The position numbers were made by a program, and so were the translations under genes. Shown here in pieces: positions 16,228-42,011 of a stretch of DNA of 42,011 nt (within the stretch, counting starts at the first letter, position 1; every line of letters begins with the position of its first letter). Location of the stretch: assembly GCF_004010195.1 (NCBI RefSeq), contig NC_057719.1, positions 15,580,589-15,622,599 on the forward strand, read 5' to 3'. Source of the DNA: Chiloscyllium plagiosum (Eukaryota). The notes under the pieces were generated by a model. The model was not told where the DNA came from. It saw nothing but the letters and a program-made list of their open reading frames with translations, and did not search any database.

Positions 16228-17075
16228 CATTTAAGAAAGGCACCAAGGATAGGCCAGGTAACTGCAGATCATTTGGTCTGACATCAGTGGTCAGGAAATT
16301 ATTGGAAAAAAAATCTGAAGAAGAGAATTAATCAATAGTTGGAAAGGCAAGGATTACCCAGGAGTATTCAGCACAGATTTGTTATAGGGAGATCCTATCT
16401 AACTAATTCGATTGAGCTTTTGAAAAAGTGACTAAATATATTGTTGAAAGTACAGGTATGGAATCCTTTATCTGAGATCCTTGGGGCCAGTTGTTTTTCA
16501 GAATTAAGAATTTTTCAAATTTCAGAATAAATGACATTTTCACAGTGAAATTTAAAAAAAAATACCTAAACAGCAGACGCACATGTGACTAGTATGAGCA
16601 GTGAGACGCAGTTGGCGCCTGCCAGTGCTGGGCCTCACCGCTACGTCACATCTGAGTGATGTGGTTTGAGTTGGGTCACCTGTTTGCATGCCAAAATGGC
16701 ACTCCACACTCCACGAAAAAGATTTCAGAGCTTTTCTGATTTTGGACAAAGGATTGTGTGCCTGTAGTGCACTTGGTGTGGTTTACATGGATGTCAGTAA
16801 GGCTTTTGACAAGGTCTCACATAGAAGACCCATCCAGAAGGTGACAGGCCATGGGATCCAAGGCAAGTTGGCAAACAGGCTCCAAAACTGGCTTGTAAAT
16901 AGGCTACAGATGGAATACCATGTGCAGCTTTGGTCGCCACATTTTTGGAAGGATGTGATTGCACAAGAGAGGGTGCCGAGGAGATTCATCAGGATGTTGA
17001 CTTGGATGAAAAGTCTCAGTTACGATGAGAGACTGGAAAGGTTGGGTTTGTTTTCCTTGGAGCAGAGGAGGCTGT
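16228..17075 (+). mobile_element. Internally deleted CR1 RT fragment
   Basis: VVYMDVSKAFDKV and EYHVQLWSPH...LGLFSLEQRRL. Confidence 0.85.
16453..16764. mobile_element. Tc1/mariner-Tigger-type MITE
   Basis: Imperfect TIRs caggtatggaatcctttatc / gacaaaggattgtgtgcctg, TA TSDs at 16451-16452 and 16765-16766. Removing it restores the CR1 sequence. Confidence 0.8.
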
Positions 17076-17434
17076 ATTATGCACTGCTTTGAACACCCGA
17101 TTTACAGGTTGGTCTAAAAATAGTCAAAATGGTGCAACATAAGTTGACTCAGAGGTAACCAGGAATGAGAGGCTATAGTGATGGAAAATTTTGAGAATAC
17201 ATGACTGAGAAGATTAAGAGGTATCTAATTTAAATTTTGAGATTATTTGAAGTCTAATAAAGATAAATGGTGATACCAGTTGGTGAGATGTTAAGACATT
17301 TCAAATAATCTTAAAAGAGATTAGAAAAAATGTTTCTTTAGACTAAATTTAATTCGATCTTGATACGAAATCAATATAGTCTTTATGGAAGAGTGCTAGC
17401 AAAGTGCCTGAAAAAGAAATAAAAGGAATAAGCA

Positions 17435-17883: not shown

Positions 17884-18078
17884 CTGAAAATCATTAGCTT
17901 TGTTGTAGTGCATGTTGAGAGCACGGTAAAGTTCAGTGTCTCTGGTGACTTTTAGATCATTGGCGTTGGTTATGCCATCATTTACAGCCTGCCGGGCGAA
18001 TTTCTCCATCTGGATATAGTAAAACTCTCGAAAATTGCTGAACCATTTGATAAGCTGTGATGTGATGCATCTGTTAAA
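17884..18078 (-). CDS. PROX1-like: Prox/Prospero-family homeobox gene, internal coding exon equivalent to PROX1 exon 4 (homeodomain helix 3 and Prospero domain)
   Basis: Translates [65 protein letters not shown] (65 codons, 195 bp). Acceptor ttttaccaccag|TTT and donor CAG|gtcagt; phase 0 at both ends, in frame with the 108-bp exon. Confidence 0.97.
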
Positions 18079-19800: not shown

Positions 19801-20069
19801 GCAGATGGTCAGAGCCGAGCCAATGCACTGCAGCACTGGCCGAGGGTGGGGACTAACTGCACTGCACCAAAATATCCTGGCCCCGTTCCAACTCCCAACA
19901 ACAAACCTTACACTTCCCCAATTCTGCAGTGTCCCTCCTCCGGTCCAAAAATGAGTGCTGTCTTTCCTTCTGTTTGCTGGTTGATATCTGGTATAAAGAC
20001 TTGATTGGCAGGAACACTTTTCAATCAGAAGGAATTATCCCAGCATCACTACGGGGCGGATGAGTCCAT

Positions 20070-20667
20070 TTGTAGAGGAGACCGCATCTGGAGCAACGGA
20101 TACAATAAATGATATTGGTGGATGTGCAGGTAAAACTTTGATGGATGTGGAAGGCTCCTTTAGGGCCTTGGATAGAGGTGAGGGAGGAGGTGTGGGCACA
20201 GGTTTTACAGTTCCTGCGGTGGCAGGGGAAGGTGCCAGGATGGGAGGGTGGGTTGTAGGAGGACGTGGACCTGACCAGGTAGTCACGGAGGGAACGGTCT
20301 TTGTGGAAGGCGGAAAGGGTAGGGAGGGAAATATATCCCTGGTGTTTGGGTCTTTTTGGAGGTGGCAGAAATGTCGGCGGATGATTTGGTTCATGCAAAG
20401 GTTGGTAGGGTGGAAGGTGAGCACCAGGGGCATTCTGTCCTTGTTACGGTTGGAGGGGTGGGGTCTGAGGGCGGAGATGCGGGATGTGGACGAGATGCAT
20501 TGGAGGGCATCTTTTACCACATGGGAAGGGAAATTGCGGTCTCTAAAGAAGGAGGCATCTGGTATGTTCTGTGGTGGAACTGGTCCTCCTGGGAGCAGAT
20601 ACGGCGGAGGCAGAGGAATTGGGAATACGGGATGGCATTTTTGCAAGAGGTAGGGTGGGAAGAAGTG
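20070..20667 (-). mobile_element. Penelope-like ORF fragment (RT thumb, linker and start of GIY-YIG endonuclease)
   Basis: DRMPLVLTFHP and TFPCHRRNCKTC...FTCTSTNIIYCIRCSRCGLLY, split by frameshifts. Confidence 0.9.
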
Positions 20668-20869
20668 TTTTTTAAGAATATGAAGTCAGCATAGACTTAC
20701 AACATTATTGTATTTAATTTCAACATGGGTCCTGAGGTCTGCCCATTTGGATGTTAGGTGAGTTGGCATGAGAGTTTAAGAGCAAAGGATGGTGATTAGG
20801 GGTATGGGCTGACATAAGTTGGCATAGATGCTACAAGGGGATATTATAGAATGGTTAGAGAGGCACACA

Positions 20870-25538: not shown

Positions 25539-26821
25539 GATCAGGTGTACCTGAGAACTCTGTGGGAAGCTAGAGAAGTGATTGCTGGGCCTCTTGCTGA
25601 GATATTTGTATCATCAATAGTCATAGGTGAGGTGCCGGAAGACTGGAGGTTGGCAAACGTGGTGCCACAGTTTAAGAAAGGCAGTAAAGACAAGCCAGGG
25701 AACTATAGATCGGTAAGCCTGACCTCGGTGGGTGGGCAAGTTGTTGGAGGGAATCCTGAGGGACAGGATGTACATGTATTTGGAAAGGCAAGGACTGATT
25801 CGGGATAGTCAACGTGGATTTGTGCGTGGGAAATCATGTCTCACAAACTTGATTGCGTTTTTTGAAGAAGTACCAAAGAAGATTGATGAGGGCAGAGCTG
25901 TAGGTGTGATCTATATGGACTTCAGTAAGGCATTCGACAAAGTTCCCCATGGGAGACTGATTAGCAAGGTTAGATCTCANNNNNNNNNNNNNNNNNNNNN
26001 NNNNNNNNNNNNNNNNNNNNNNNNNNNNNNNNNNNNNNNNNNNNNNNNNNNNNNNNNNNNNNNNNNNNNNNNNNNNNNNNNNNNNNNNNNNNNNNNNNNN
26101 NNNNNNNNNNNNNNNNNNNNNNNNNNNNNNNNNNNNNNNNNNNNNNNNNNNNNNNNNNNNNNNNNNNNNNNNNNNNNNNNNNNNNNNNNNNNNNNNNNNN
26201 NNNNNNNNNNNNNNNNNNNNNNNNNNNNNNNNNNNNNNNNNNNNNNNNNNNNNNNNNNNNNNNNNNNNNNNNNNNNNNNNNNNNNNNNNNNNNNNNNNNN
26301 NNNNNNNNNNNNNNNNNNNNNNNNNNNNNNNNNNNNNNNNNNNNNNNNNNNNNNNNNNNNNNNNNNNNNNNNNNNNNNNNNNNNNNNNNNNNNNNNNNNN
26401 NNNNNNNNNNNNNNNNNNNNNNNNNNNNNNNNNNNNNNNNNNNNNNNNNNNNNNNNNNNNNNNNNNNNNNNNNNNNNNNNNNNNNNNNNNNNNNNNNNNN
26501 NNNNNNNNNNNNNNNNNNNNNNNNNNNNNNNNNNNNNNNNNNNNNNNNNNNNNNNNNNNNNNNNNNNNNNNNNNNNNNNNNNNNNNNNNNNNNNNNNNNN
26601 NNNNNGTGTATGGAATGAGCTGCCAGAGGATGTGGTGGAGGCTGGTATAATTGCAACATTTAAGAGGCATTTGGATGGGTATATGAATAGGAAGGGTTTA
26701 GAGGGATATGGGCCGGGTGCTGGCAGGTGGGACGAGATTGGGTTGGGATATTTGGTTGGCATGTACGGGTTGGACCGAAGGGTCTGTTTCCATGCTGTAC
26801 ATCTCTATGACTCTGTGACTC
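25539..26821 (+). mobile_element. Young CR1 LINE inserted in the Penelope element (spans the assembly gap)
   Basis: [38 protein letters not shown], then VWNELPE and the ctctatgactctgtgact tail. Confidence 0.9.
25980..26605. other. Assembly gap (626 N)
   Basis: Run of n. Confidence 1.
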
Positions 26822-31536: not shown

Positions 31537-32560
31537 AGTAACAAAGAGGATTCATGAGGGCAGACCAGTGGACGTGATCTGTATGGACTTCAGTAAGGCG
31601 TTCGACAAGGTTTCCCATGGGAGACTGGTTGGCAAGGTCCGATCTCACGGAATACAGAGAGAACTAGCTATTTGGATACAGAACTGGCTCAAAGATAGAA
31701 GACAGAGGGTGATGGTGGAGGATTGTTTTTCAGACTGGAGGCCTGTGACCAGTGGAGTGCCACAAGGATCGGTGCTAGGTCCACCATTTTTCGTCATTTA
31801 TATTAATGATTTGGATGTGAGCATAAGATGTACAGTTAGTAAGTTTTGAACAAAGAGACCTTGGAGTGCAGGTTCATAGCTCCTTGAAAGTGGAGTGGCA
31901 GGTGGTTAGGATAGTGAAGAAGGCGTTTGATATGCTTTCTTTTATTGGTCAGAGTATGGAGTACAGGAGTTGGGAGGTAATGTTGCGGCTGTACAGGACA
32001 TTAGTTAGGCCACTTTTGGAATGTTGCATGCAATTCTGGTCTCCTTCCTATTGGAAAGATGTTGTGAAACTTGAAAGGATTCAGAAAAGATTCACAAGGA
32101 TGTTGCCAGGGTTGGAGGATTTGAGCTATAGGGAAAGGTTGAATAAGCTGGGGCTGTTTTCCCTGGAGTGTCGGAGGCTGAGGGGTGACCTTATAGAGGC
32201 TTACAAAATCATGAGGGGCATGGATAGAATAAATAGACAAAGTCTCTTCCCTGGGGTGGGGGAGCCAGGAACTCGAGGGCATAGGTTTAGGGTGAGAGGG
32301 GAAAGATATAAAAGAGACCTAAGGGGCAACTTCTTCAAGCAGAGGGTGGTACGTGTATGGAATAAGCTGCCAGAGGATGTGGTGGTACAATTGCAATATT
32401 TAAAGGGCGCCTGGCTGAGTATATGAATAGGAAGGGTTTGGAGTGATATTGTCCAGGTGCTGGCAGGAGGGACTAGAGTGGGTTGGGATATCTGATCAGC
32501 ATGGATGAGTTGGACCAAAGGGTCTGTTTCCACGCTGTACATCTCTATGGCTCTATGACT
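31537..32560 (+). mobile_element. CR1 LINE 3' half with internal deletion at about 31846
   Basis: [10 protein letters not shown] and [11 protein letters not shown]; the sequence jumps after SKF (ADD motif lost); LECRRLRGDLIEAYK; tail ctctatggctctatgact. Confidence 0.92.
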
Positions 32561-34816: not shown

Positions 34817-34924
34817 CTTAACATCCAGGAAGTATGTTTTCAATGTGGTTGAGCTGGGATAACGGATGTAGAAGAACATCAGCTTGGCCTTCTTCAGGTG
34901 ATTAGGCGTTAGTCCGTCCTGAAC
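34817..34924 (-). CDS. PROX1-like: Prox/Prospero-family homeobox gene, internal coding exon equivalent to PROX1 exon 3 (start of homeodomain); paralog unresolved
   Basis: The minus strand translates [36 protein letters not shown] (36 codons), colinear with PROX1 [36 protein letters not shown]. It ends AAG|gtaagc (donor 34816-34811). The 5' boundary is inferred from homology and a U12-like branch site. It is too short for the ORF track. Confidence 0.95.
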
Positions 34925-34944
34925 ATGGAGACTGGTTAAGGGAA
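34925..34944 (-). promoter_or_regulatory. Putative U12-type branch site and 3' splice site
   Basis: The minus strand reads ttcCCTTAACcagtctccAT|GTT. CCTTAAC (34941-34935) matches the U12 branch consensus and ends 10 nt before the homology-predicted exon start. Confidence 0.7.
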
Positions 34945-34991
34945 GATGCACCAGGATGGTCAACACTGCTACAAAACGTTAAACATTTCTG

Positions 34992-35105
34992 AATAAAAAC
35001 TGAAAGAACCGCAGAAGCAAAAGCAGAAATTGCTGGAATAGCTCAGCAGAGTCTGTGGAGAGAAATCAGAGTTAACATTTCAGGCCGAGTGACCCTTCCT
35101 CAAAA
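34992..35105 (-). mobile_element. Older pseudo-LTR fragment (second family) just upstream of the Prox acceptor
   Basis: aacatttcaggccgagtgacccttcctcaaaa is a decayed hammerhead core on the minus strand. Confidence 0.6.
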
Positions 35106-35404
35106 GCTATTAAATATTCCCAACCTACTTTACGTTGTTACAGATTGCCTATTCTTTATATAAACGGTCTTATTCTACCACTCACCAATTCCTAAAGATG
35201 AAACAAACTAAATGGAGATTATTTATTTCTTAGCACACATTGGAAGCACCACAACCTCTGCCTTTTGTGTAATCCCGATCCATTTCAACCAAAGTAGCGA
35301 ATAACATTTAGTTAGAAAATAATATTAAATTTTTGCCTATTAAATTTGTCACACATCAGATGAATTTTAAAAGATACATTGTCAAGATAATATGTTGTAA
35401 AGGA

Positions 35405-35494
35405 CTGAAGAAGGGCTTATGCCCAAAACGTAGATTCTCCTGCTCCTTGGATGCTGCCTGACCTGCTGCGCTTTTCCAGCAACACATTTTTCAG
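35405..35494 (+). mobile_element. Penelope pseudo-LTR copy
   Basis: ctgaagaagggcttatgccc-aaaacg (GAAA mutated) ...gatgctgcctgacctgctgcgcttttccagc. Confidence 0.85.
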
Positions 35495-35539
35495 TAATAG
35501 AAAATAGATTCAGGATAATGGGTCATTTTTACCCCGGGT

Positions 35540-36200
35540 ACGTGCCATCCCATAGGCAAGACAGGCCCACTAGAAGTGGTAGCACAGTGATGTACAGTCA
35601 GGAAGGAGTGTTCAACATTGACTCTGGACCCCACAGTGTCTCAAGGCATTGAGTCAAACTTGTGAAAGGAAATCTCCTGCTGATTACTATCTCCTAGCAT
35701 TCAGCTCAAGAATCAGTTCTATTTAACATTGAATGCCATTTGGAGGAATCACTTCAGGTACCAAGGGCACACAAAGTACTCTGGGTGGAGATTCAATGTC
35801 CATCATCAAGAATGGTTCATTAGCACTTCTACTGACTGAGTTCGTAAAGTCCTCAAGGTCCTAGCTGCTAGGATGGGCCTCCAGGGGTGAGGGAACCAAC
35901 AAGAGGGAAAAATGTATTGATCTTGTCCTTGCAAATCTACCTGAAGCAGATGCATCTAATGACAGTATCAGTAGGAGTGACCACTCCACAGTCCTTGCAG
36001 AAACAGAATCCCTTCTTCACATTGAGGATACCCTGTGTTGTGTTGTATAGCACTAACAAATTGTTAAATGGAATAGATTTTTAGCAGATCTGCTAACTCA
36101 TACCTGGACACTCATGAGATGATGTGGACTATCAGCAGCAGAATTATATTCAACTACAACCTAACTTCACATTCCCAATTTACCATGACCATTAAGGAAG
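35540..36200 (+). mobile_element. APE endonuclease region of the same LINE family as 22430-28087
   Basis: Homologous to the reverse complement of about 23880-24500; ctgggtggagattcaatgtccatcatcaagaatgg (WVGDFNVHHQEW-like). Confidence 0.7.
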
Positions 36201-37540
36201 GATGAGTGCACCTCTGGTAACAACCTTGTTTGGTAATAACGGGAAACACTTGATCACAGACAAAGCCATTTCTTTGTGGAAGAACTTACTTTGTAAAAGA
36301 TGAAGACTGACCAGGTTTATAAGCTCCTGAGAAGTCTGAAGTCACACGCGGCCTTGGTTTTTGTTGCTATGAAACAAGTACATTTGTTTGTGTGTTTGGG
36401 GGGCGGGGGGTGGCCTGATCAGGTCAAGAAGCCTGCGCAAGCGAGGCAGCCACACTGGTCGACAGCAACAACTCTAACTGGGCCATGCAAGCTGAACTCT
36501 AAAGGTTCAAACAGAGGAGAGTTAACAAGAAAGGAATGGCAGGCAATGGAACTTAAAGAACATGGATAGAGGCAAGGAGGAGAAGGAAGGTGGGTACTGC
36601 CTATTTAGGGTGGGGGACACAATGGGGTAATTAAAAGTGCTAGGGAGGGGAGAAAGAGCAAATGAATCGAATACAGGATCAACGCTGACCATGGGATTTG
36701 GATGGGAATGAGATTGAGAAACGAGGAGAACTATCAAGGGAAATAGCCGATTGAAGAAAGACAAAAGACACCAGAGAATAGAAGAGGACCATCTACAGTG
36801 ATGTGGGAAAATTATAGTGTAGAGCGGGAGGGTAAAGAGTGAACAAATCAAGTGCAAAATAAACAGTCTCCTAAAATGCATCACAACAAAAAAGGCCTCA
36901 CAGAGAATGGCCAGCAAGCTGTTTGCACATATTCCTATACAGCACTATCATATTCAACTGAAGTAACCATAACAGAAAGTGTTAAATACTACTGTGCATG
37001 CAATCTGTTAAAGGCTTAGCACTGAGCAAAGGTCACTACAGAACAAAGGCTCTGACAGCTCCAAACACTGACATCCTAACTCATTGATTAATTTAACTCT
37101 GAGAAGAAGGGGACTCAAGACTCTCTCAACAGTGCTGACAATGGTGAACATGATTGGACAGTGATAGAGTGAGTGAGTGCGTGTGTGTGTTATTCCACAT
37201 GCAGCCTTGCAGGAGCATTAGCAGGCTGAGATACATGAAAGCAAAGAACATGGGAATGAAATTGTTACGCAGCTTGTACATTCCAAGGTTGTAGGACTGT
37301 ATTGCGGGGACAATGAAAGCCAGTAACATTAAGATTTGGGTAATTGTCATATGCATGGAGAGCAATGATCCAGGCAACAAAGATCTTTCACATTACTGAG
37401 GAATGAAGGACAGGAAAACCAGTCAGGTTGCGCCTGACCTTGTAGAGATGAGCATGTGAGCAGTATTTCCATAACAAATGTTTCGGTAACCAAACCTAAC
37501 GCTTTACTGGCATTGATGAGGCTAAGGAGGAGGAGTAAAG

Positions 37541-37747
37541 ATTAGATGAGATTACTTACAGTGTAGGAACAGGCCCTTTGGCCCAACAAGTCCACACCGA
37601 CCCGCCAAAGCGCAACCCACCCATACCCCTACATTTACCCCTTACCTAACACTATGGGCAATTTAGCATGGCCAATTCACCTAACCTAACCCGGGTCTCT
37701 GGCGCTGTGAGGCAGCAGTGCTAACCACTGTGCCACCGTGCCGCCCA
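37541..37747 (-). mobile_element. HE1-like SINE with internal deletion
   Basis: ctgtgaggcagcagtgctaaccactgtgccaccgtgccgccc is the reverse complement of the HE1 head. Confidence 0.9.
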
Positions 37748-38084
37748 AGAAGCATCCAGCACCAGCCAGAGAAAGGGGACTACAGTTGTGGATAAGCAAG
37801 TAGTATCTGAAGCAGGAAATCAGAATCTTCAGCACTCTTTAACCATGTACCAAGGCAATGTGTACTGATCGCATTTTATCAACCGAGAGGAGTGAAAGTC
37901 AGTGGTGAAGACATCTTCAGTTGCTGAGTTAGGCAGTCACCTATACCACCACCGCCTAACGGCCAATGTGCAGTCATGCAGCATGGGAAGCAGCGTTATG
38001 ACTGTGCTGCTGAAGATCACAGCGGTATTGAACATGCAATCCACCAGAAAACCTCAAATCTCAATTCAGAACGTTTTATAAATT

Positions 38085-38602
38085 CCTGTGTGGAACATGG
38101 GCCTTGCTGGCTAGCCAGCATTTATTGGCCATCCCCATGTGCTGTTGGTGAACTGCAAGCTACATCTGTGGTATCTCCCAATCAGCAGCCCACACGTGCA
38201 TTTGTGAGCTCAACCCCGATGGAGGAGTTGTGGATGGGAATGGTTCAGGACTTTTTTCCCCAAGAAGAATGAGAGAGCCCTGAGACCATTCTGATGGGGA
38301 ATGGACATGTAAAAGGGCCAGCTGTCCATCCTTTATTGCCCAGATGGCAGTAAAGAGTCAATCACATTGCTGTGGAGTCACGTGTAGGCCAGATCAGGTA
38401 AGAATGGCAGTTTCTTTCTCTAAAGGATATTAGTGAACCAGATGAGGTTTTCCTGACAATCAGCAACACCTTCACGGTCATCATTAAACTTTTAATTCCA
38501 TTTGTTTTTATTAGTTTCAAATACCACCATCTACATGGCAGAATATTATTTGGGTCCCTGGATTAATATTCTAGTAATAATACCACTAGCTGCATCTCCC
38601 CG
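38085..38602 (-). mobile_element. tRNA-headed SINE-like element (same family as 2304-2728)
   Basis: Reverse tail gctggctagccagcatttattggccatccc and body gagtcaatcacattgctgtggagtcacgtgtaggccaga. Confidence 0.7.
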
Positions 38603-41029
38603 CAGCTGATTGGAGTGTTTCTGCTGAAGGATATTGATAAATCAAAAGTTAAAATTGTTATGTTCTGACCTAAAGGATGCTCTGATTGAATATTTTCTCT
38701 TTCTCACATATATATCTGTAATGCAAGTGTATATATCTATACCATTGCATACGCACAGAAAAGAATCTCTTGTCCATCTGGTGTATTTCTTTGTTTAGAG
38801 AATCTGTCTCTATCAATCTCTGTGTTTCTGTGTTTCAGTTTCTCCAGCTCTCGTTCTACTTTTCCATGCTTGGATCCCTGACTACATATTTCCATGCAAT
38901 TATTCCCCATGTATCGAGAATTCAATTAAACTGGTTGCTTTTGCTTCATTTGAATAATAAAAGATGGGCATATCAGATTTCAACCCATCTAATAGTTTGC
39001 GGCACTACTTGAGACACTGCAGACTACATTTGAAATTATATTTTGAAAGGGCTACTTGACTTGTAAAATAAAGAGAAGTGCATCAATGCTGATCACTCCC
39101 AATGATCAACCAGGTAAGAGGACATTATCAGCTGGAAACTATGAGATATTGTATGCATTAACATCAGAGAAGTCACTGGAATAAGAGTGGGACTGGAGCA
39201 GTGAGTAGTAATGGAAAGCTCGGAGCTACTCAGCTTTCCTTGAGTATCACTAAATCTTATTTAAAACAAAGCACTCTAATAATTTACAGTTTGCTAACTC
39301 ATCTTAAATTAAACAAAAAACTTTTTACATACTAAATAAGCAAAAAACAAAAGGTGATCCAATTTTATTTGGGAATATGAATCACTTTAGGGGTTTCTGT
39401 ATTAAGTCGTTCTACTTTCCCATTTCTTAATGTGTCAATGCATTTTTGTCTGTCTTCAACCCTTAGGACTGAAAGTGCTCTGGGGGTGGGGAAGCAATGT
39501 TGGTGGAGTTACAAGTGGAGCAAGTACTTATGAAGAGCATTATGCTAAACTCTCAGTTATTGAGTGAAAAGTTTACTGAACCCCCAATTGTTATATTCTG
39601 GAAGCACATCAAATGATCAAGATTTTTTATTTTGTTAGCTGTCCACATCACAAAAAAATGCTTTATTCATAGATGTAATAGGAATTTGCTGAGAGTTCTG
39701 TTTCACTGGTGTTGTACTTTCTCTACCCCAATCCACCTCCCCAAAACATCCCTCCCCAAAGCTGCCTCAAAAAGGTCGTGACTGGAGCTGTCTGTTCAAT
39801 GGCACGACTGTATAGTGGCCATCAAACAGACTTGTTATGAATCTTAATAGAGGGGATCATCCAAGTCCTGGATCATTATGGACCAACACAACCACCTCTT
39901 GCATTATGCTGACCTGAATATACAATTCCAAAGCTGCTGTCCATGTTTCTTCAAACGTTATCAAGTTCCTTTTGATCATTTCACCCTACTTATGTGTGTG
40001 AGAGAGAGGTGCCTGCAGGAAATCTGCTTGGCAAACCTTTTTTATTCCACTTTCAGATGGCAGGGTAACCAAATGAGCACCACATTTGGCACAATGTCAA
40101 GCATCATTAATGTGGCCAAGTGTTTTGGTATTATTTATAACATTAAACTTGCAAACAAAGGAAAGAGTGGCATTTTAAAATATTCCCTCAGGCAATCCGT
40201 TTAGGAGTGTGATGCATTGTGTCAAAGGAAAAGAAAACTGTTGGAACAATGGACGGACACAAACCTTTATTCAAGATCATGTTGGTAACCCCTCCAGCTC
40301 AGGGATTTCTATCTATTCATTTTAGTAGGTGGTCACAGGCTGAGATGCTCAATTTATTTAAATTGCAGGGGACACTCAAAGTGCAAGGACTCTTCTACGA
40401 AAAACTGGGACACAATTTTCCCATAGGAACAGCGTGCCAGGTGACTAACATATCACCTCCACCACCGAGTTAACTCACCCAATCACACACATTAAGATAT
40501 ACTCCTTAAGAGCTAACAAACAGTTTAGGAGAGATTTTTGGACCATCACCAGCTTTGACACTGGTGGGGCTAGAGGCAGGCAGCCTGTGGTTCCAAAAGA
40601 CTATTGGTGGAGGTCTGCTCCTCAGGGAGTCAAGAAGCCAAGCAAATGTTTTTTATCTTCTTGTTGCATGGTGAGGGTCATAGGGAGAGAGGTGGTCAGA
40701 GACAAGAGTAAGAGGTAGCTTTGAGTCTTGATTCCACTTCTGCCTCCAATTGTCCCCAACTGGGTAAATTACAGCCCCTCCCCAAATTTGGCAGACAGGT
40801 CACCATAACTTCCCTATTGGAAAAATACCCCCCAATCTCACTCATTCGGAAGGTAGGTAATGAGGGAAACAGTGATTGAGGTACTGGTGAGGAATTGAAA
40901 CTGTCCCGAATGGCGCTTCTTAGCAAGCACTTGATTGGTGATCCCTGTACTTCCCCAGAGATAACTCACTCAAATATTGCCCCCTTATTGATACCTCTCT
41001 CTCTCTCAACAACTCCAATTAGAAGGATC

Positions 41030-41479
41030 AGCAAGACGGCTTTTGTGTGGAGCCGCAGAAAATGGGGCAGATACTAAACGAGTATTTTGCATTATTGTTT
41101 ACTGTGGAAAAGGACATGGAAGGTATAGAATGTAGGGAAATACATGGTGACATCTTGGAAAATGTCCATATTACGGAGGAGGAAGTGCTGGATATCTTGA
41201 AACGCATAAAGGTGGATAAATCCGCAGGACCTGATCAGGTGTACCCTAGAACTCTATGGGAAGCTAGAGAAGTGATTGCTGGGCCTCTTGCTGAGATATT
41301 TATATCATCGATAGTCACAGGTTAGGTGCCGGAAGACTGGGGGTTGGCTAACGTGGTGCCACTGCTTAAGAAGGGTGGTAAGGACAAGCCAGGGAAATAT
41401 AGACCGGTGAGCCTGACGTCGGTGGTGGGCAAGTTATTGGAGAGAATCCTGAAGGACAGGATGTATACGTATTTGGAAA
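41030..41479 (+). mobile_element. Young CR1 ORF2 fragment
   Basis: ILNEYFALLFT...KSAGPDQVYPRTLWEARE...KPGKYRPVSLTSVVGKLLE. Confidence 0.92.
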
Positions 41480-41497
41480 TACGTGTATTTGGAAATA

Positions 41498-42011
41498 CAC
41501 CCGCATGGGCCCCAGCTATGCCTGCCTCTTCGTAGGGTATGTGGAACAATCCATCTTCCGCAACTACACTGGCCCCACCCCCCATCTTTTCCTTCGCTAC
41601 ATTGATGACTGTATCGGCGCCGCCTCGTGCTCCCACGAGGAGGTTGAACAGTTCATCCACTACACTAACACCTTCCACCCCGACCTCAAATTCACCTGGA
41701 CAGCCTCGGACTCCTCCCTCCCCTTCCTAGACCTTTCTGTTTCTATCTCAGGCGACCGAATCAACACGGACATCTACTACAAACCAACCGACTCCCACAG
41801 CTACCTGGACTACACCTCCTCCCATCCTGCCCCCTGTAAAAACACCATCCCATTCTCCCAATTCCTTCATCTCCGCCGCATCTGCTCCCAGGAGGACCAG
41901 TTCAAAATACGTACAACACAGATGGCCTCCATAATCAAGGATCGCAATTCCGCCCCCCCCCGACGTGGTCGACGGTGCCCTCCACCGCATCTCCTCCACT
42001 TCCCGCCCCTC
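41498..42011 (+). mobile_element. Young Penelope-like element, RT region; runs off the window
   Basis: The frame from 41505 reads MGPSYACLFVGYVEQSIF...FLRYIDDCIG...FHPDLKFT...LPFLDL...TDIYYKPTDSHSYLDYTSSHP. The YIDD catalytic motif is intact and CpGs are retained. Confidence 0.92.

What the first reader, a model, noticed from the sequence alone, without database searches (positions are those of the whole stretch)
34911..34950. Prox homeodomain exon appears to use a U12 acceptor ending in non-canonical AT, with an in-frame AG 6 nt downstream
Seen: the minus strand reads catcttcCCTTAACcagtctccAT|GTT CAG GAC. The 36-codon homology to PROX1 puts the junction directly after AT, 10 nt after a U12 branch consensus. 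Known: Drosophila prospero has a U12 AT-AC intron (twintron) just before the homeodomain, and from memory vertebrate PROX1 has a minor intron here too. Inference: this paralog may have an AT-AT minor intron, a rare terminus. Alternatively it may have shifted to the in-frame CAG (34921-34919, which loses VQ). The upstream CAG (34934-34932) would add 7 nt and shift the frame if the intron is phase 0. Competing acceptors could alter the homeodomain N-terminus.
Basis: partly seen in the sequence, partly recalled or inferred. Interest (0 to 1): 0.7.

Follow-up and report, generated by a model that had tools for sequence, protein, structure and literature searches.

The report
Shark PROX2 minor intron switched ends
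In a bamboo shark's PROX2 gene, a rare-type intron starts with GT where close relatives have AT, and it likely ends six bases later than the ancestral spot, which would trim two amino acids just before the DNA-binding domain; the odd AT noticed here is the ancestral end and may still be used.

Summary
The sequence is as described and base 34925 is real (two DNA runs, no differences). The gene is shark PROX2. The donor, 11.6 kb upstream and outside the window, reads GTATCCTTT: a U12 donor of the GT subtype, so the AT-AT idea fails. Two in-frame ends remain: the ancestral position (GT-AT, 34925, 11 nt from the branch A) and the CAG six bases on (GT-AG, 34919, 17 nt). The PROX1 paralogue and human PROX1 are AT-AC, human PROX2 is AT-AA, and three other sharks read AT at this donor. 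So the intron has switched subtype in carpet sharks. I favour the AG (0.55): GT-AG is 555 and GT-AT 4 of 770 human minor introns, database models of three carpet sharks use it, and the skipped Ile codon has changed. But 17 nt is a rare spacing, GT-AT splices, gene finders default to this AG, and no RNA read covered the junction. The scan noted the same shift earlier in a ray (e1-9026917); carpet sharks look like a second, independent origin. Modest interest: a natural snapshot of an AT-AC to GT-AG switch, settled by one RT-PCR.

The parts
34925..42011 (-). 3' part of PROX2 intron 2 (U12 type). Whole intron G000:C10:15627089 to 15615513 (11,577 nt to the AT, 11,583 to the AG), including a 1,657-N gap just beyond the window; donor GTATCCTTT at L003:5089, outside the window
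34935..34945 (-). U12 branch site; core CCTTAAC 34941-34935, branch A taken as 34936; core complementary to the genome's U12 snRNA (C39) with one A bulged, flanks with mismatches
   Evidence: pairing read by eye
34932..34934 (-). CAG only 4 nt after the branch A, out of frame; rejected as acceptor
   Evidence: shortest spacing in 41 human GT-AG minor introns was 9 nt
34925..34926 (-). AT at the ancestral intron end, 11 nt after the branch A, in frame; candidate GT-AT acceptor
   Evidence: human PROX2 ends at the same spacing with AA
34919..34924 (-). GTT CAG: former Ile-Gln codons (here Val-Gln); the CAG is the likely main acceptor, 17 nt after the branch A, in frame
34817..34918 (-). PROX2 exon 3 (34 codons from the AG, 36 from the AT): start of the homeo-prospero domain; followed by a U2 donor
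17884..18078 (-). PROX2 exon 4 (65 codons, FNRC to NDFQ), canonical GT-AG flanks; the last coding exon lies outside the window at about C10:15578824

Best explanation
Intron 2 of this shark's PROX2 gene has a U12 branch site and a GT-type U12 donor, and it likely ends mainly at the CAG at 34919, six bases past the ancestral end, which would remove Val-Gln from just before the homeo-prospero domain. Shown: donor, branch site, both candidate ends, frames, gene identity. Inferred: the intron was AT-type in the shark ancestor; in carpet sharks the first base changed from A to G; a G start pairs best with a G end, and the nearest usable AG was the old Gln codon; the minor spliceosome therefore moved there at the cost of two linker residues. 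The C-to-T change at the old end either came first (AT-AT, then GT-AT, both workable) or drifted afterwards. Rays seem to have made the same switch separately.
For: Donor GTATCCTTT at the codon boundary homologous to the PROX1 AT donor. Human minor introns: GT-AG 555, GT-AT 4, GT-AC 0 of 770 (PMC13602164 Table 1); GT-AC and AT-AG disfavoured (PMC3584512). Database models join Asn directly to Asp/Glu-Gly in 3 of 5 carpet-shark species and 6 of 9 batoid species, in 0 of 8 other chondrichthyans and 0 of 120 ray-finned PROX2 models. The C. plagiosum protein has at least 4 RefSeq accessions and C. punctatum two isoforms plus a second pipeline's model, all with this junction. The first skipped codon is Ile in all 88 of 120 ray-finned models that read Ile-Gln (none Val-Gln or Met-Gln) but Val here and Val or Met in Mobula, as expected if released from coding. 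PROX1 introns use 15-16 nt spacing and pass over nearer dinucleotides, so 17 nt is only slightly longer. The two residues lie before Pfam HPD position 1 and at or before the start of the 1MIJ construct, so the loss should be cheap.
Against: No RNA read shows either junction. The optimum branch-to-end spacing is 11-13 nt; in my hand count of 41 of 555 human GT-AG minor introns only 2 (the GPR89A/B pair) reached 17 nt, against 4 at 11 nt and 12 at 12 nt. GT-AT splices productively and occurs naturally (PMC1557818; ADAT2 and SLC8B1), and the old end is AT, not the unusable AC, which looks like compensation. Gene finders choose this same AG by default: 3 of 8 AT-lineage models are mis-joined onto it (Heptranchias, Heterodontus, Pristiophorus), so the models may not rest on RNA. 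Ile to Val or Met is conservative, carpet-shark PROX2 has other changes nearby (Glu to Asp, Thr to Ile), and PROX1 has Met here in tetrapods. Three batoid models keep the two residues.
Confidence: 0.55

Rival explanations
1. Tandem acceptors: the minor spliceosome uses both the GT-AT end (best spacing, weaker terminal pair) and the GT-AG end (best pair, long spacing), giving two proteins that differ by Val-Gln; a subtype switch caught midway.
For: Each end has one advantage; both are in frame; AT and GTT CAG are unchanged in organisms A, B and C; 76% of human non-canonical sites take part in alternative splicing, mostly alternative 5'/3' sites (PMC4176328); U12 3' site choice is error-prone.
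Against: Only one protein is on record for this species; conservation over about 3-4% divergence is weak evidence; no RNA.
Confidence: 0.22
2. A non-canonical GT-AT U12 intron: the ancestral end at 34925 remains the main acceptor and the protein keeps Val-Gln; the database models are forced to the canonical AG.
For: 11 nt spacing is optimal and equals human PROX2's; the penultimate A is kept; AT-AC to AT-AT to GT-AT is a path of single workable steps, and PROX2's last intron base is labile (human AT-AA); aligners mis-place non-canonical sites onto nearby GT-AG (PMC4176328).
Confidence: 0.18
3. AT-AT intron, from an AT donor elsewhere, such as the ATATCCTTT at window 38430 or something hidden in the assembly gap.
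For: A consensus AT donor motif lies at 38430 on the minus strand; 1,657 N lie inside the intron.
Against: Exon 2 ends in GTATCCTTT at the homologous position; about 0.27 such motifs are expected by chance in 11.6 kb; no CCTTRAY lies between 41940 and 36739 to define an exon before 38430; no homologue has an extra exon here.
Confidence: 0.02

Closest known systems
U12 intron 2 of vertebrate PROX1/PROX2 and Drosophila prospero (PMC2831892 table; PMC3291851 passages; PMC13602164 Table S6)
   Same: Same position just before the homeodomain, phase 0, U12 donor and branch site. Human PROX1 is AT-AC, human PROX2 AT-AA, this genome's PROX1 AT-AC.
   Different: Donor is GT, not AT; the ancestral end is AT; the end has likely moved 6 nt. 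No nested U2 intron as in the fly twintron: only a weak GTAAAG 72 nt into the intron, and PMC3291851 limits the twintron to insects.
U12 subtype switching, AT-AC to GT-AG (Burge 1998 as cited in PMC2831892, PMC1557818, PMC3584512)
   Same: Orthologous U12 introns differ in terminal pair; 36 such clusters are reported.
   Different: The passages I read discuss changes at both termini in place, with poorly spliced intermediates such as AT-AG. Here one donor change plus recruitment of an exonic Gln-codon AG would complete the switch without a matching acceptor mutation.
Natural GT-AT U12 introns (human ADAT2/DEADC1, SLC8B1/SLC24A6) and the LKB1/STK11 +1 A>G disease allele
   Same: GT donor with consensus branch site and an AT at 11-14 nt; the LKB1 allele is the same base change in an AT-AC intron and activates nearby 3' sites.
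   Different: Those GT-AT ends are transcript-supported; this one is not. Whether they have an in-frame AG 6 nt downstream could not be seen (only 3 exon bases are tabulated).

Membership tests
U12-type (minor) intron | 5' site RTATCCTTT | tested here: met
   GTATCCTTT at L003:5089, minus strand
U12-type (minor) intron | Branch site CCTTRAY about 10-20 nt from the 3' end, able to pair with U12 snRNA | tested here: met
   CCTTAAC 34941-34935; ends at 11 and 17 nt; one U12 snRNA gene, 144.9 bits, with the complementary sequence
U12-type (minor) intron | Removal depends on U11/U12/U6atac | not testable with these tools
   needs knockdown or minigene
AT-AT (or any AT-start) U12 subtype | Intron begins with AT | tested here: not met
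   begins GT
GT-AG U12 subtype | Transcripts join the GT donor to an AG | tested here: inconclusive
   Database models do; 0 RNA reads laid in 3 of 3 RNA runs
GT-AT non-canonical U12 intron | Transcripts join the GT donor to the AT | tested here: inconclusive
   Sequence allows it; no transcript seen
Twintron (prospero type) | A second, U2-type donor/acceptor pair nested in or overlapping the U12 intron | tested here: not met
   No GTRAG from 150 nt before to 300 nt after the donor; the rest of the intron was not scanned for U2 pairs
PROX2 (versus PROX1) | Separate from the PROX1 clade; lies between FCF1 and DLST | tested here: met
   Quick tree puts 22 chondrichthyan rows apart from 9 PROX1 rows, SH-aLRT 100, no outgroup; a DLST-like gene at C10:15.687 Mb and an Fcf1 match at 15.346 Mb flank it; the human gene order and the DLST motif are recalled; PROX1 is on C9
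Homeo-prospero family | Pfam PF05044 over cut-off | tested here: met
   P0001 residues 539-689, 281.7 bits

The most novel reading that the evidence does not exclude
Carpet sharks carry a living intermediate of the AT-AC to GT-AG switch: a GT-AT end at optimal spacing competes with a GT-AG end six bases on, yielding PROX2 isoforms with and without Val-Gln, and the same intron switched independently in rays. That would show a route for subtype switching by acceptor capture from a Gln codon, taken twice in one gene, and testable in captive-bred bamboo sharks.
Probability: 0.3. Interest if true: 0.6.

Novelty: new variant of a known kind. Interest (0 to 1): 0.38.

Why it matters
How a U12 intron crosses from AT-AC to GT-AG is an open point because the one-step intermediates splice poorly (PMC3584512, PMC1557818 passages). 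[quoted passage not shown] Either outcome is informative: AG use shows a switch completed by capturing an exonic AG; AT use shows a stable GT-AT stage. It also flags PROX2 models in sharks and rays as unreliable at this junction. The effect on the protein is probably small.

Tried and rejected
RNA: no RNA holder was listed; laying two single-cell runs (about 2% and 6% read) and one guessed-RNA contig set gave 0 records, which is no test. Protein search for short spliced or read-through shark fragments found none among 34 candidates. A pattern scan of metagenome contigs gave 3 loci, all PROX1-like from bony vertebrates. No relatives' genomes are held, so orthologous shark and ray acceptors could not be read beyond organisms B and C, which are too close to be informative. 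The three primary papers on U12 terminal pairs and spacing (PMC1370826, PMC86782, PMC60238) are not held; I rely on passages that cite them. The careful tree did not finish; the quick tree is used. Earlier-findings look-ups by sequence and by the first word set were blank. Rejected: assembly error; CAG 34932 (too near the branch, frame-shifting); AT donor; twintron; PROX1 identity. The Pristis and Hemiscyllium models, which keep the two residues, were not used as evidence of real splicing because the residues before them look intron-derived or uncertain. No structure prediction was run: a two-residue linker change is below its resolution.

Full report
Observation. CCTTAAC spans 34941-34935; AT ends at 34925; 36 codons follow to a U2 donor. 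Taking the second A (34936) as branch point, candidate ends lie at 4 nt (AG, out of frame), 11 nt (AT, in frame), 12 nt (TG, out of frame) and 17 nt (AG, in frame). Contigs from two runs of the same organism (2 samples, 2 studies) cover the stretch with no other letter, and three runs of two related organisms list no change at 34919-34927, so the AT is real.

Gene. The window is G000:C10:15580589-15622599. A 537-codon exon lies upstream at C10:15628700-15627090, exon 4 at window 18078-17884 and the last coding exon just below the window. The exon-2 product is 100% identical to a protein that its source names from Chiloscyllium plagiosum (P0001). A second family member on C9 is PROX1 by sequence. 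A quick tree of 34 chosen proteins separates 22 chondrichthyan rows, including P0001, from 9 PROX1 rows (SH-aLRT 100; no outgroup; careful search unfinished). A DLST-like gene lies 58 kb upstream and an Fcf1 match 235 kb beyond the window's low end, the human PROX2 neighbourhood as I recall it. The gene is PROX2.

The donor decides the first question. Exon 2 ends at a codon boundary followed by GTATCCTTTCT. RTATCCTTT occurs 11 times in 478,802 nt scanned, and this one is at the position where the C9 paralogue has ATATCCTTTTT. The paralogue's acceptor is TTTCCTTGAC, 15 nt, AC, then Ile-Gln-Glu. So the intron is U12, subtype GT, and AT-AT is refuted. The genome holds a U12 snRNA gene whose branch-pairing segment matches the core of this branch site. 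A 1,657-N gap lies inside the intron, but no homologue has an exon there.

History. Human PROX1 is AT-AC and human PROX2 AT-AA with an 11 nt spacing (PMC13602164 Table S6); fly prospero is AT-AC (PMC2831892). Models that run past the donor reveal its first base: Ile-Ser-Phe (AT) in Heptranchias, Heterodontus and Pristiophorus and in the ray-finned models that read through; Val-Ser-Phe (GT) in Rhincodon, in this genome and in 3 unnamed proteins of the skate cluster. Heterodontus branches between carpet sharks and rays in the tree, so two separate A-to-G changes are the simplest reading. Donors of Cetorhinus, Carcharodon, Scyliorhinus, Callorhinchus and most rays were not seen, so this is inference.

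Which end? For the AG: human minor introns count GT-AG 555, GT-AT 4 and GT-AC 0 of 770. Of 22 chondrichthyan species, models join Asn directly to Asp/Glu-Gly in 3 of 5 carpet sharks (Hemiscyllium is aberrant, Rhincodon lacks exon 3) and 6 of 9 batoids (Pristis and two Mobula keep two residues), and in 0 of 8 others (5 keep Ile-Gln, 3 are mis-joined). Among 120 ray-finned PROX2 hits none has the clean short junction; 88 read Ile-Gln, none Val-Gln or Met-Gln; the rest are irregular. The change to Val or Met only in GT lineages fits loss of constraint. PROX1 introns work at 15-16 nt. For the AT: the optimum spacing is 11-13 nt (PMC3584512); my by-eye count of 41 of the 555 human GT-AG introns gave 9 nt: 2, 10: 2, 11: 4, 12: 12, 13: 6, 14: 9, 15: 4, 16: 0, 17: 2 (one paralogue pair, motif partly out of view). 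GT-AT splices productively (PMC1557818) and the old end is AT rather than AC. The three mis-joined AT-lineage models also land on the +6 AG, so gene finders pick it without RNA; that several isoforms share the junction hints at RNA support but does not prove it. No RNA read could be obtained. I put AG-dominant at 0.55, both at 0.22, AT-dominant at 0.18.

Mechanism and effect. Shown: signals, spacing, frames. Inferred: after the donor became G, the preference for a G end drew splicing to the AG of the old Gln codon, within reach of the branch site and in frame. The AT either served as the stepping stone (AT-AC, AT-AT, GT-AT) or arose by drift. The two residues precede Pfam HPD position 1 (P0001 residue 539) and sit at or before the first residue of the Drosophila 1MIJ construct, so the fold should be intact; an effect on the N-terminal arm is untested. 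No twintron signal was found near the donor.

Known and new. The intron, subtype switching and GT-AT ends are all known. I found no paper on PROX2 splicing in sharks or on this switch in eight searches. Papers seen as passages only: PMC2831892, PMC1557818, PMC3584512, PMC1874599, PMC4176328, PMC8199999, PMC3291851, bioRxiv 2022.09.24.509304; PMC13602164 as passages plus parts of supplement 2; others as listings. Dietrich 2001 and 2005, Levine 2001 were not held, and Hastings 2005 was seen only as cited.

Verdict. Real feature, first interpretation partly right. New variant of a known kind; interest 0.38.

Noticed in passing
human PROX2 intron (PMC13602164 Table S6): Human PROX2's minor intron is AT-AA, so the last base of this intron is labile in PROX2 in a third lineage.
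   Followed up: partly
L024:180-200 and L025 (metagenome contigs): Two fish PROX1-like genes have AG at the ancestral end, 15-16 nt after a U12 branch site, keeping Ile-Gln; donors not seen, so they may be AT-AG or GT-AG switches in place.
   Followed up: no
proteins P0002, P0005, P0006, P0007, P0122, P0134 and about a quarter of 120 ray-finned models: Database models of PROX2 are often wrong at this U12 junction (donor read-through, intron-derived residues, missing exon 3 in the whale shark model).
   Followed up: partly
window 34817-34918: Carpet-shark PROX2 has changes at usually fixed homeodomain positions: Thr to Ile (also zebra shark), Glu to Asp and Pro/Ser to Leu (bamboo and epaulette sharks).
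   Followed up: no
proteins P0131, P0132, P0009: Two Mobula species keep Met-Gln or Val-Gln and Pristis keeps Ile-Gln although other rays' models drop them; may mark a canonical AG at the old end or accepted non-canonical ends.
   Followed up: no
window 38430, minus strand: A perfect ATATCCTTT inside the intron, with no branch motif defining an exon before it; consistent with chance.
   Followed up: yes
window 25980-26605; G000:C10:15622600-15624256: Assembly gaps in PROX2 introns 3 and 2.
   Followed up: no
window 16670-17090, 19997-20690, 31827-32420, 41403-42011: Open stretches resembling retroelement reverse-transcriptase fragments (family assignment from recall) in the PROX2 introns.
   Followed up: no
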